A stretch of DNA of 64,000 nt, taken from NCBI RefSeq assembly GCF_057098645.1, contig NZ_CM169472.1, one strand, 5' to 3'. Below are positions 36,001-39,000 of this stretch, one piece after another; position 1 is the first letter of the stretch; each line of letters opens with the position of its first letter. A program made the position numbers.

Positions 36001-39000
36001 GGGAAGTCGGTCACGCTACCTCTTCTGAAGCCTGTCTGTCACTCCCTTCGCAGTGTATCATTCTGTTTAACGAGACTGTTTAAACGGAAAAATCTTGATG
36101 AATACTTTACGTATTGGCTTAGTTTCCATCTCTGATCGCGCATCCAGCGGCGTTTATCAGGATAAAGGTATCCCTGCGCTGGAAGAATGGCTGACATCGG
36201 CGCTAACCACGCCGTTTGAACTGGAAACCCGCTTAATCCCCGATGAGCAGGCGATCATCGAGCAAACGTTGTGTGAGCTGGTGGATGAAATGAGTTGCCA
36301 TCTGGTGCTCACCACGGGCGGAACTGGCCCGGCGCGTCGTGACGTAACGCCCGATGCGACGCTGGCAGTAGCGGACCGCGAGATGCCTGGCTTTGGTGAA
36401 CAGATGCGCCAGATCAGCCTGCATTTTGTACCAACTGCGATCCTTTCGCGTCAGGTGGGTGTGATTCGCAAACAGGCGCTGATCCTTAACTTACCCGGTC
36501 AGCCGAAGTCTATTAAAGAGACGCTGGAAGGTGTGAAGGACGCTGAGGGTAACGTTGTGGTACACGGTATTTTTGCCAGCGTACCGTACTGCATTCAGTT
36601 GCTGGAAGGGCCATACGTTGAAACGGCACCAGAAGTGGTTGCTGCATTCAGACCGAAGAGTGCAAGACGCTACGTTAGCGAATAAAACATCCCCCCGAGC
36701 GGGGGGATCTCAAAACAATTAGTGGGATTCACCAATCGGCAGAACGGTGCGACCAAACTGCTCGTTCAGTACTTCACCCATCGCCAGATAGATTGCGCTG
36801 GCACCGCAGATCAGACCAATCCAGCCGGCAAAGTGGATGATTGCGGCGTTACCGGCAATGTTACCGATCGCCAGCAGGGCAAACAGCACGGTCAGGCTAA
36901 AGAAAACGAATTGCAGAACGCGTGCGCCTTTCAGCGTGCCGAAGAACATAAACAGCGTAAATACGCCCCACAGACCCAGGTAGACACCAAGGAACTGTGC
37001 ATTTGGCGCATCGGTCAGACCCAGTTTCGGCATCAGCAGAATCGCAACCAGCGTCAGCCAGAAAGAACCGTAAGAGGTGAATGCGGTTAAACCGAAAGTG
37101 TTGCCTTTTTTGTACTCCAGCAGACCGGCAAAAATTTGCGCGATGCCGCCGTAGAAAATGCCCATGGCAAGAATAATACCGTCCAGAGCGAAATAACCCA
37201 CGTTGTGCAGGTTAAGCAGAATGGTGGTCATGCCGAAGCCCATCAGGCCCAGCGGTGCCGGATTAGCCAACTTAGTGTTGCCCATAATTCCTCAAAAATC
37301 ATCATCGAATGAATGGTGAAATAATTTCCCTGAATAACTGTAGTGTTTTCAGGGCGCGGCATAATAATCAGCCAGTGGGGCAGTGTCTACGATCTTTTGA
37401 GGGGAAAATGAAAATTTTCCCCGGTTTCCGGTATCAGACCTGAGTGGCGCTAACCATCCGGCGCAGGCAGGCGATTTGCAGTACGGCTGGAATCGTCACG
37501 CGATAGGCGCTGCCGCTGACCGCTTTAACCCCATTTAGTGCCGCGCCTACAGGGCCTCCCAGCCCCGCGCCGCGCAGCAAACCATGCCCAAGTACGCTCA
37601 TTGCTGCGTGGGTGCGTAAAATGCGGGTCAGTTGGCTGGAAAGCAGATGCAACACGCCTTTTGCCAATAATTTGTCTTTCATCAGCAGCGGCAGCAGCTC
37701 TTCCAGCTCATTCACCCTGGCATCGACCGCGTGCAGAAACTCCTGCTTATGTTCCTCGTCCATTTTCTTCCAGGTATTACGCAGAAATTGTTCCAGTAAC
37801 TGTTGCTCAATTTCAAACGTAGACATCTCTTTGTCGGCTTTCAGCTTCAATCGTTTTGAAACATCGAGCAAAATGGCCCGATACAATTTACCGTGTCCGC
37901 GCAGTTTGTTGGCGATACTATCGCCACCAAAATGCTGTAATTCTCCAGCAATCAGCTGCCAGTTGCGGCGATGTTGCTCGGGATGCCCTTCCATCGATTT
38001 AAACAGTTCGTTGCGCATCAGTACGCTGGAGAGGCGAGTTTTGCCTTTTTCATTATGGGTGAGCAATCGGGCGAAATTTGCCAACTGTTCCTCACTACAA
38101 TGCTGAAGAAAATCCAGATCTGAATCATTCAGGTAATTAACATTCATTTTTTGTGGTTTCTATATTCTGGCGTTAGTCGTCGCCGATAATTTTCAGCGTG
38201 GCCATATCCGATGAGTTCACCGTATGACCGGAAAAGGTGATTTTTGAGACGCAGCGTTTATTGTCGTTATCACTGTTAATGTTGATCCAGTCAGTGGTTT
38301 GCCCTTCTTTTATTTCTGAAGGAATATTCAGGCTCTGACTGGCGCTACGGGCGGCTTTGAAATAAACCGATGCACCGCTTAACTGTAAATCGCCATGGTC
38401 GGCAGAGAGTTGTATGCGTTTCACAATGCGACAAACAGGAAGTTTCAGCGCCAGATCGTTGGTTTCGTTACGCGGCATTGCAATGACGCCGAGGAGTTTA
38501 TGGTCGTTTGCCTGCGCCGTGCAGCACAGCATCAGGCTAATCGCCAGGCTGGCGGAAATCGTAAAAACGGATTTCATAAGGATTCTCTTAGTGGGAAGAG
38601 GTAGGGGGATGAATACCCACTAGTTTACTGCTGATAAAGAGAAGATTCAGGCACGTAATCTTTTCTTTTTATTACAATTTTTTGATGAATGCCTTGACTG
38701 CGATTCATTCTTTATATGAATAAAATTGCTGTCAATTTTACGTCTTGTCCTGCCATATCGCGAAATTTCTGCGCAAAAGCACAAAAAATTTTTGCATCTC
38801 CCCCTTGATGACGTGGGTTACGACCCCATTTAGTAGTCAACCGCAGTGAGTGAGTCTGCAAAAAAATGAAATTGGGCAGTTGAAACCAGACGTTTCGCCC
38901 CTATTACAGACTCACAACCACATGATGACCGAATATATAGTGGAGACGTTTAGATGGGTAAAATAATTGGTATCGACCTGGGTACTACCAACTCTTGTGT

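What the first reader, a model, noticed from the sequence alone, without database searches (positions are those of the whole stretch)
37612..38106. Long antisense ORF (164 aa) embedded opposite yaaW
A 164-codon plus-strand ORF lies entirely within the minus-strand yaaW gene, at the position of the disputed K-12 overlapping gene htgA/mbiA. Its product is Ser/Cys-rich and low-complexity, which is typical of shadow ORFs. This is a known overlapping-gene candidate rather than a new one.
Basis: partly seen in the sequence, partly recalled or inferred. Interest (0 to 1): 0.25.

Follow-up and report, generated by a model that had tools for sequence, protein, structure and literature searches.

The report
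Known htgA/mbiA antisense ORF in yaaW
The open reading frame is real and is the long-disputed E. coli "gene" htgA/mbiA lying backwards inside yaaW, but it is no longer than chance allows and shows no sign of being preserved as a protein, so it is ordinary and already known.

Summary
A GTG-started 164-codon ORF lies at 37612..38106 (+), wholly inside yaaW (37434..38147, -). It is the E. coli K-12 locus mbiA/htgA (b0012), whose annotated ATG corresponds to 37621.

The ORF is not statistically remarkable. Resampling synonymous codons of yaaW gives an equally long antisense ORF in 16-31% of trials. In this window, 11 of 54 genes carry an antisense open run of at least 199 codons.

The frame is open only in Escherichia. 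Citrobacter, Salmonella, Kluyvera and Pseudescherichia have 3-6 internal stops.

Across 23 distinct Escherichia sequences, 27 of 98 yaaW-synonymous changes alter the HtgA protein. The neutral expectation is 20-27% (conditional omega about 1.0-1.5). The same test detects selection on yaaW itself.

Synonymous variation is not reduced over the overlap. The ORF end is polymorphic among 5,426 complete genomes: about 148 aa in 248, 164 aa in 1,499 and 174 aa in 3,856.

The product has no homologous family, is 23% Ser and 10% Cys, and has no predicted fold.

Best reading: a by-product ORF of yaaW, possibly transcribed, and not a maintained gene. The reading as a young real gene (published biofilm phenotype) is not excluded. 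Already known; low interest.

The parts
37612..38106 (+). ORF as reported: GTG start, 164 codons plus TGA
   Evidence: the ORF listing; translation. GTG 37612 has no Shine-Dalgarno pairing (dG +0.9, weaker than all 54 annotated genes in the window).
37621..38106 (+). Equivalent of the K-12 annotated gene mbiA/htgA (b0012): ATG start, 161 aa
   Evidence: K-12 NC_000913.3 annotates mbiA at 10830..11315 (+) and the offset is +26791. The product differs from K-12 MbiA at 2 residues (R12K and N14D in ORF numbering). SD-like GGGTG at 37610-37614, dG -3.9.
37507..38106 (+). Full stop-free frame (199 sense codons), preceded by TAG 37504-37506. It contains the position of the original 591-nt htgA/htpY reading frame.
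   Evidence: Delaye 2008 describes the 591-nt version and the later change of start codon.
37434..38147 (-). Mother gene yaaW (237 aa; Pfam Ubiq_cyt_C_chap plus DUF3944), under purifying selection
   Evidence: Omega about 0.08 within the overlap. Orthologues found in Escherichia, Citrobacter, Salmonella, Kluyvera and Pseudescherichia.
38104..38106 (+). TGA stop of the ORF. It is polymorphic: the TGG allele lets the frame run on to TAA 38134-38136 (174 aa).
   Evidence: site 38106 A/G. Allele counts: A in 1,499 and G in 3,856 of 5,426 complete E. coli genomes. The 174-aa form is protein P0001.
38056..38058 (+). Trp149 codon TGG. The TGA allele (yaaW Thr30 ACC to ACT, synonymous) truncates the ORF to 148 aa.
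   Evidence: Strain 405. 248 of 5,426 genomes. The same stop occurs in E. albertii and in metagenome loci L032 and L040.

Best explanation
The ORF is the known htgA/mbiA reading frame. It is most likely a non-selected by-product of the yaaW coding sequence, not a maintained protein-coding gene.

Shown: the mechanism of its openness. In this antisense frame the third codon positions of both strands coincide. A stop can arise only where a yaaW Tyr codon follows a codon ending in T or C, or a His/Gln codon follows a codon ending in T. YaaW is rich in Glu, Gln, Lys and Trp residues immediately before His/Gln, and their codons cannot end in T. Only about 10 sites are therefore vulnerable between yaaW codons 15 and 215. 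The Escherichia lineage happens to carry non-T bases at all of them.

Inferred: the frame persists by phylogenetic inertia. Only about 1.2% of yaaW-synonymous mutations create a stop.

From the literature: antisense transcription of the locus is reported.

Inferred: any translation would give a basic, Ser/Cys-rich, probably unstructured polypeptide whose sequence and length are free to drift.
For: 1. Length is within the null. Synonymous resampling of yaaW gives an ORF of at least 164 codons in 16-31% of trials and an open run of at least 199 codons in 9-18%. Comparable or longer antisense frames occur in 11 of 54 genes in the window.

2. No purifying selection on the alternate frame. Among yaaW-synonymous variants in 23 distinct Escherichia sequences, 27 of 98 change HtgA. 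The neutral expectation is 0.20-0.27 for kappa 2-8, and the ts:tv ratio implies kappa of about 6. Conditional omega is 1.0-1.5, with 95% CI limits of 0.63 to 2.4 across that kappa range. Expected stop-creating changes were 1.2-1.4 and 1 was observed. The same method detects selection on yaaW (omega 0.35-0.40, p=0.004-0.015; overall omega about 0.08).

3. No excess synonymous constraint over the overlap.
- Polymorphisms per synonymous site are 0.18 inside against 0.14 outside in E. coli.
- The inside/outside ratio of 4-fold divergence between Escherichia species (0.66-0.76, not significant) lies within the range of lineages that lack the ORF (0.31-1.21).
- yaaW 4-fold divergence is higher than in satP, mog and yaaI.

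4. The ORF ends are not conserved: 148-aa, 164-aa and 174-aa alleles occur in 248, 1,499 and 3,856 of 5,426 genomes.

5. Outside Escherichia the frame has 3-6 internal stops.

6. The product has no Pfam or NCBIfam family and only 3 homologues among 5.8 billion proteins. Its composition is that of antisense translations. AlphaFold2 gives mean pLDDT 27.9 with no secondary structure.

7. No sigma-70-like or sigma-32-like promoter lies upstream on the + strand, while the dnaK sigma-32 promoters score as a positive control.

8. PGAP/RefSeq does not annotate the ORF in any of the 10 non-K-12 genomes I inspected.

9. The EDL933/Sakai ORF (10736..11362) is in the ORF catalogue of Zehentner et al. (bioRxiv 10.1101/2020.11.18.388249, Table S12). 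It is absent from their lists of 864 transcribed and 216 ribosome-footprint-positive antisense ORFs.
Against: - Fellner et al. 2014 (FEMS Microbiol Lett 350:57; not held, known to me only through citing papers and memory) reported a phenotype for a strand-specific mutant in EHEC. The locus is listed among overlapping genes 'verified by demonstrating a phenotype'.
- Intragenic promoters in htgA/yaaW were reported active in vitro (PMC2731890). yaaW-mbiA is listed as a transcriptional overlap (PMC12288877).
- K-12 RefSeq still annotates mbiA.
- ATG 37621 has a moderate SD-like element.
- The first 148 codons are intact in every Escherichia sequence I read, and no W8-stop allele exists in 5,426 genomes.
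- The selection test cannot exclude weak constraint (omega down to about 0.6). It counts variable sites without a phylogeny.
- The absence from the ribosome-profiling lists is an argument from silence, under one or a few growth conditions.
Confidence: 0.7

Rival explanations
1. It is a real, evolutionarily young protein-coding gene (mbiA). On this reading it arose by overprinting inside yaaW in the Escherichia/Shigella lineage, is expressed from its own promoter, and makes a small basic Cys/Ser-rich protein that modifies biofilm formation and metabolism.
For: - The ORF is restricted to Escherichia, as expected for a de novo gene (Delaye 2008).
- A phenotype is cited for mbiA/yaaW in EDL933.
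- Promoter activity was reported in vitro.
- ATG 37621 has a moderate SD-like element.
- The first 148 codons are intact in all sampled Escherichia sequences.
- It is annotated in K-12 RefSeq.
Against: - Conditional omega is about 1.0-1.5, not below 1.
- The ORF length is expected by chance.
- The C-terminus is variable or truncated at high population frequency.
- There is no consensus promoter.
- It is absent from the antisense-ORF expression and footprint lists in EDL933.
- There is no predicted fold.
- Delaye's 'slower evolution' signal is not reproduced at synonymous sites, and the weak trend is shared by lineages lacking the ORF.
- The original sigma-32 role was not confirmed (Nonaka 2006, as cited).
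Confidence: 0.2
2. The functional entity is an antisense RNA or a transcriptional overlap (excludon-type) that modulates yaaW expression. The ORF it happens to contain would be irrelevant.
For: - yaaW-mbiA is listed among the 'divergent' excludons of E. coli from RNA-seq coverage (PMC12288877).
- Intragenic promoters were reported active in vitro.
- The protein-level frame lacks constraint.
- An RNA-level effect could explain a phenotype of point mutants without needing a protein.
Against: - There is no Rfam family.
- Synonymous variation over the overlap is not reduced, so there is no sign of a conserved RNA sequence or structure.
- No consensus promoter lies on the + strand upstream.
- The ORF is not among the 864 antisense ORFs called transcribed in EDL933.
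- Pervasive antisense transcription in E. coli is often noise (general knowledge).
Confidence: 0.12

Closest known systems
htgA / htpY / mbiA (b0012) of E. coli K-12, antisense in yaaW (b0011)
   Same: It has the same locus, strand, frame and stop codon, and the same ATG (window 37621 = K-12 10830). The flanking genes are identical (mog, satP, yaaI, dnaK). The product is about 99% identical.
   Different: The window allele differs at two residues. Most E. coli genomes carry a 174-aa read-through allele instead of the 164-aa form found in K-12 and this window.
Antisense embedded overlapping genes of EHEC with experimental support (nog1/citC, laoB, ano, asa, pop/ompA)
   Same: These are ORFs fully embedded antisense in a conserved mother gene, taxonomically restricted, and proposed to arise by overprinting (PMC4683798, PMC5960689).
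   Different: Those were found through RNA-seq and ribosome-profiling signals. The mbiA ORF is absent from the same laboratory's lists of transcribed and footprint-positive antisense ORFs and shows conditional omega of about 1.
Classical shadow ORFs in the codon-aligned antisense frame, such as the 678-aa ORF opposite dnaK in this window (38912..40948, -)
   Same: It is a long antisense frame kept open as a side effect of the sense gene's codon and amino-acid usage. The product has an odd composition and no homologues.
   Different: The frame type differs. Here the third codon positions coincide, so stops depend on Tyr/His/Gln contexts and not on the rare codons TTA, CTA and TCA. This frame is also the one best 'protected' by selection on the sense frame, so apparent conservation can be an artefact (PMC4182739).

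Membership tests
htgA/mbiA (b0012) locus of E. coli | Plus-strand ORF embedded antisense in yaaW between satP and yaaI/dnaK, in the same frame and with the same stop as K-12 10830..11315 | tested here: met
   The offset of +26791 maps 10830..11315 to 37621..38106.
htgA/mbiA (b0012) locus of E. coli | Product near-identical to K-12 MbiA | tested here: met
   two amino-acid differences in 161 residues.
Functional overlapping (overprinted) protein-coding gene | ORF longer than expected given the mother gene's protein sequence | tested here: not met
   P(ORF of at least 164 codons) = 0.16-0.31; P(open run of at least 199 codons) = 0.09-0.18.
Functional overlapping (overprinted) protein-coding gene | Purifying selection in the alternate frame, conditional on synonymy in the mother gene | tested here: not met
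   27 of 98 against a neutral 0.20-0.27; omega 1.0-1.5 (CI limits 0.63-2.4). The control on yaaW gives omega 0.35-0.40.
Functional overlapping (overprinted) protein-coding gene | Conserved ORF boundaries within the clade that carries it | tested here: not met
   148-, 164- and 174-aa alleles in 248, 1,499 and 3,856 genomes. E. albertii is truncated.
Functional overlapping (overprinted) protein-coding gene | Own promoter and ribosome-binding site | tested here: inconclusive
   There is no consensus promoter on the + strand upstream. A moderate SD-like element precedes ATG 37621, but none precedes GTG 37612. The literature reports promoter activity.
Functional overlapping (overprinted) protein-coding gene | Evidence of translation (ribosome footprints or peptides) and a strand-specific mutant phenotype | not testable with these tools
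   A phenotype is cited. The ORF is absent from published footprint-positive lists for EDL933. Fellner 2014 and Missiakas 1993 are not held.
Sigma-32 heat-shock gene / positive regulator of sigma-32 promoters (original HtgA/HtpY claim) | Sigma-32-type promoter upstream of the ORF | tested here: not met
   the only hit is a background-level 11/14 match inside the ORF. The dnaK P1/P2 control is detected. [quoted passage not shown]
Shadow (by-product) antisense ORF | Composition typical of antisense translation, and no homologues or domains | tested here: met
   (S 23%, C 10%, R 9%, D+E 3%, against an antisense background of S 17%, C 3.4%, R 9%)..
Shadow (by-product) antisense ORF | Lies in the codon-aligned antisense frame, whose stops are complements of the rare codons TTA, CTA and TCA | tested here: not met
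   it lies in the frame where third positions coincide. In the codon-aligned frame yaaW is open for only 60 codons.

The most novel reading that the evidence does not exclude
mbiA is a genuine proto-gene caught near its birth. On this reading it is translated at low level in Escherichia and not yet under detectable purifying selection. Three length alleles (148, 164 and 174 aa) segregate in E. coli and form a natural allelic series for testing how an overprinted antisense ORF acquires function.
Probability: 0.15. Interest if true: 0.45.

Novelty: already known. Interest (0 to 1): 0.12.

Why it matters
htgA/mbiA is one of the textbook candidates for a bacterial gene born by overprinting on the antisense strand. 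If it were real, it would support the view that bacterial genomes hide many antisense genes.

The checks here point the other way. The ORF length follows from the YaaW amino-acid sequence. The alternate frame evolves neutrally, and its ends vary freely across 5,426 genomes. That argues for caution in treating this locus, and long antisense ORFs in this frame generally, as genes.

For the genome scan it is a known feature and needs no further attention.

Tried and rejected
- **Naive probability.** Multiplying independent per-site stop rates gave P of about 0.0007 for an open frame. I rejected this because it ignores that most His/Gln codons in YaaW follow Glu, Gln, Lys or Trp codons, which cannot end in T. 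The codon-resampling null, conditioned on the protein, gives 0.09-0.31.
- **Promoter scans.** Sigma-70 and sigma-32 consensus scans found nothing upstream on the + strand. This is weak negative evidence only.
- **Rfam.** The scan of 36700-39000 found nothing.
- **Protein families.** Pfam and NCBIfam scans of the ORF product found nothing.
- **Structure.** The single-sequence AlphaFold2 model has pLDDT 27.9. This is uninformative beyond 'no confident fold', so no fold search was run.
- **Synonymous divergence inside versus outside the overlap.** There is a mild, non-significant deficit inside (ratio 0.66-0.76). I rejected it as evidence because lineages without the ORF show the same range.
- **W8-stop allele.** A search in two haplotype backgrounds found none in 5,426 genomes. 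One site carries no statistical weight.
- **Papers not held.** Fellner 2014, Missiakas 1993 and Nonaka 2006 could not be read. Their content is used only as cited by other papers.
- **Metagenome scan.** It returned only 15 loci. They confirmed the same alleles but added little power.

Full report
**Observation**

The ORF listing shows an ORF at 37612..38106 (+): GTG start, 164 aa. It lies wholly inside a minus-strand ORF at 37434..38147 (237 aa). The surrounding genes are mog, satP, yaaW, yaaI, dnaK and dnaJ, with exactly the K-12 spacing at an offset of +26791.

- K-12 RefSeq annotates mbiA (b0012, 'uncharacterized protein MbiA') at 10830..11315 (+) inside yaaW 10643..11356 (-). This corresponds to window 37621..38106.
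- The window is 99.98% identical to E. coli strain 95-3192 (NZ_CP027362.1), apart from one extra IS element.
- The frame is stop-free from 37507 to 38106 (199 codons). In-frame starts are GTG 37612 and ATG 37621.
- GTG 37612 has no Shine-Dalgarno pairing (dG +0.9, weaker than all 54 annotated genes of the window). ATG 37621 has a moderate one (dG -3.9; 39% of annotated genes are as weak or weaker, and 17% of all ATG triplets are as good or better).
- The third codon positions of the two frames coincide. Position 1 of the ORF pairs with position 2 of yaaW, and position 2 with position 1 (derived from the coordinates; Delaye 2008 describes the same phase).

**Is it more than chance?**

In this phase an antisense stop needs a yaaW Tyr codon preceded by a codon ending in T or C, or a His/Gln codon preceded by a codon ending in T.

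- YaaW has 26 such codons, 22 of them inside the open stretch. Most follow Glu, Gln, Lys or Trp, whose codons cannot end in T.
- I resampled yaaW codons while keeping the protein, in 20,000 trials. With the window's codon usage, an open run of at least 199 codons occurred in 9.1% of trials and an ORF of at least 164 codons in 16%. Permuting yaaW's own synonymous codons gave 17.6% and 31%.
- Empirically, 9 of 54 complete genes in the window have an open run of at least 199 codons in the codon-aligned antisense frame (dnaK is open over its whole length). serB has a 213-codon run in the same frame type as this ORF.
- The length is therefore unremarkable.

**Product**

- Composition is S 23.2%, C 9.8%, R 9.1%, D+E 3.0% and G 1.2%. 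This is an exaggerated version of what antisense translation of the other genes gives in this frame (S 17.1%, C 3.4%, R 9.2%), and unlike real proteins of the window (S 5.6%, C 1.1%).
- No Pfam or NCBIfam family matches.
- Only three relatives exist among 5.8 billion proteins. [quoted passage not shown] The other two are 201 aa (51% identity) and 116 aa (44% identity), more distant matches whose similarity to the ORF product is patchy.
- Single-sequence AlphaFold2 gives mean pLDDT 27.9 with no secondary structure. This is weak evidence.

**Distribution**

- YaaW orthologues were retrieved from 17 species-level genomes.
- The long antisense frame exists only in Escherichia. Citrobacter, Salmonella, Kluyvera, Pseudescherichia and related genomes have 3-6 stops between yaaW codons 15 and 215.
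- E. albertii has a stop at yaaW codon 31, and Escherichia sp. E1V33 lacks the stop at codon 15. The ORF end therefore differs between Escherichia species.
- At the roughly ten vulnerable third positions, outgroups carry T in about 20% of cells. An ancestor with none has a probability near 0.8^10, about 0.1, which agrees with the resampling null (inference).

**Selection**

From 11 complete E. coli genomes spanning 97.7-100% identity, 3 other Escherichia and 11 metagenome contigs, I obtained 23 distinct yaaW sequences.

- Within the ORF span there are 98 yaaW-synonymous variant alleles. Of these, 27 change the HtgA sequence, one of them to a stop.
- The neutral expectation is 27.0% at kappa 2, 21.1% at kappa 6 and 20.1% at kappa 8. 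The observed ts:tv ratio of 87:29 implies kappa of about 6.
- This gives a conditional omega of 1.03-1.51, with 95% CI limits of 0.63 to 2.38 across that kappa range. Expected stop-creating changes were 1.2-1.4 and 1 was observed.
- The same procedure applied to yaaW, conditional on HtgA synonymy, gives omega 0.35-0.40 (p=0.004-0.015). Overall yaaW omega is about 0.08.
- The naive, unconditioned HtgA omega of about 0.2 only reflects yaaW constraint. Delaye et al. suspected as much themselves, and PMC4182739 warns of it for this frame.

Synonymous polymorphism is not depleted in the overlap.

- It is 0.18 per synonymous site inside against 0.14 outside in E. coli (p=0.71), and 0.79 against 0.96 in 14 Escherichia (p=0.24).
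- Between Escherichia species, 4-fold divergence inside versus outside has a ratio of 0.66-0.76 (not significant). Pairs of lineages that lack the ORF span 0.31-1.21.
- yaaW's 4-fold divergence (0.36-0.45) exceeds that of satP, mog and yaaI (0.15-0.35).

**Population alleles**

I used 35-nt probes placed so that only one allele retains a 28-nt exact word, and counted matches among 5,426 complete E. coli genomes.

| Allele | Effect on the ORF | Genomes |
|---|---|---|
| 38106A (TGA) | 164-aa form, as in K-12 and this window | 1,499 |
| 38106G (TGG) | read-through to TAA 38134-38136, 174 aa | 3,856 |
| 38058A (W149 to stop; yaaW Thr30 ACC to ACT) | truncation to 148 aa | 248 |
| W8 to stop | early truncation | 0 |

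The first 148 codons are intact in every Escherichia sequence I read. With only about 1.2% of yaaW-synonymous mutations creating stops, this is what inertia predicts.

**Expression signals**

- Consensus scans find no sigma-70-like promoter on the + strand upstream and no sigma-32-like promoter. The dnaK sigma-32 promoters are recovered as a positive control.
- There is no Rfam family.

**Literature**

- Delaye 2008 proposed overprinting but called the gene's existence controversial. The paper notes that it is not induced by sigma-32 (Nonaka 2006), that its start codon was revised, and that one strain carries a nonsense allele.
- Intragenic promoters in htgA/yaaW were reported active in vitro (PMC2731890).
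- ExcludonFinder lists yaaW-mbiA as a divergent transcriptional overlap (PMC12288877).
- Zehentner et al. (bioRxiv 10.1101/2020.11.18.388249) list mbiA/yaaW among overlapping genes with a demonstrated phenotype, citing Fellner 2014.
- The EDL933/Sakai ORF 10736..11362 appears only in their BLAST catalogue (Table S12). It is absent from the complete tables of 864 transcribed (S4) and 216 footprint-positive (S6) antisense ORFs. This is an argument from silence.
- Fellner 2014, Missiakas 1993 and Nonaka 2006 are not held.

**Conclusion**

This is the known htgA/mbiA candidate.

The most likely explanation (about 0.7) is a by-product ORF whose openness follows from YaaW's amino-acid sequence, plus the chance absence of T at about ten third positions in the Escherichia ancestor. 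It persists by inertia, and its sequence and ends drift neutrally. It may be transcribed.

A real young gene (about 0.2) is not excluded, because published mutant phenotypes exist and weak selection would escape my test. A purely RNA-level role (about 0.12) has little support.

Novelty: already known. Interest: low.

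Noticed in passing
window 37434-38147 (-), yaaW: RefSeq/PGAP names this gene 'msyB: acidic protein MsyB' in the E. coli genomes inspected, through NCBIfam NF007593 (516.9 bits, full length). The true MsyB (K-12 b1051, 124 aa) has no similarity to YaaW (BLASTP E=2.5). The NCBIfam model therefore appears mislabelled. K-12 itself calls the gene 'putative enzyme-specific chaperone YaaW'.
   Followed up: yes
window 49046-50302: A 1,254-bp IS3-family element lies on the - strand: an orfA with HTH_Tnp_1, an orfB with rve integrase domains, and terminal repeats TGATCCTACCCA...TGGGTAAGATCA. It interrupts a fimbrial chaperone gene that is intact in strain 95-3192. The adjacent usher is a pseudogene in that strain.
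   Followed up: yes
window 38912-40948 (-), opposite dnaK: A 678-aa antisense ORF spans the whole dnaK gene in the codon-aligned shadow frame. It is far longer than the ORF under study. deoD and ispH are also fully open in that frame, and serB has a 213-codon run in the same frame type as htgA.
   Followed up: partly
window 37434-38147 versus 36098-37285 and 38173-38577: yaaW's 4-fold synonymous divergence between E. coli and other Escherichia species (0.36-0.45) is higher than in the neighbouring satP, mog and yaaI (0.15-0.35). The cause is unknown; possibilities are low codon bias or past recombination.
   Followed up: no
H15 (NZ_CP180600.1); L033 and L041: Natural disruptions or variants of yaaW itself were seen. 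One pig isolate has an IS1 insertion. One metagenome contig (L033) reads NSISCQ where the others read NSPAISCQ, consistent with a 6-nt in-frame deletion affecting both frames. Another contig (L041) is rearranged at the 3' part of yaaW.
   Followed up: no
window 37646 and 37651: The window (strain 95-3192 lineage) carries two private substitutions relative to all other sampled E. coli. One changes YaaW residue 166 (Leu here, Ser elsewhere). Both change the HtgA frame (R12 and N14 here, K and D elsewhere).
   Followed up: no
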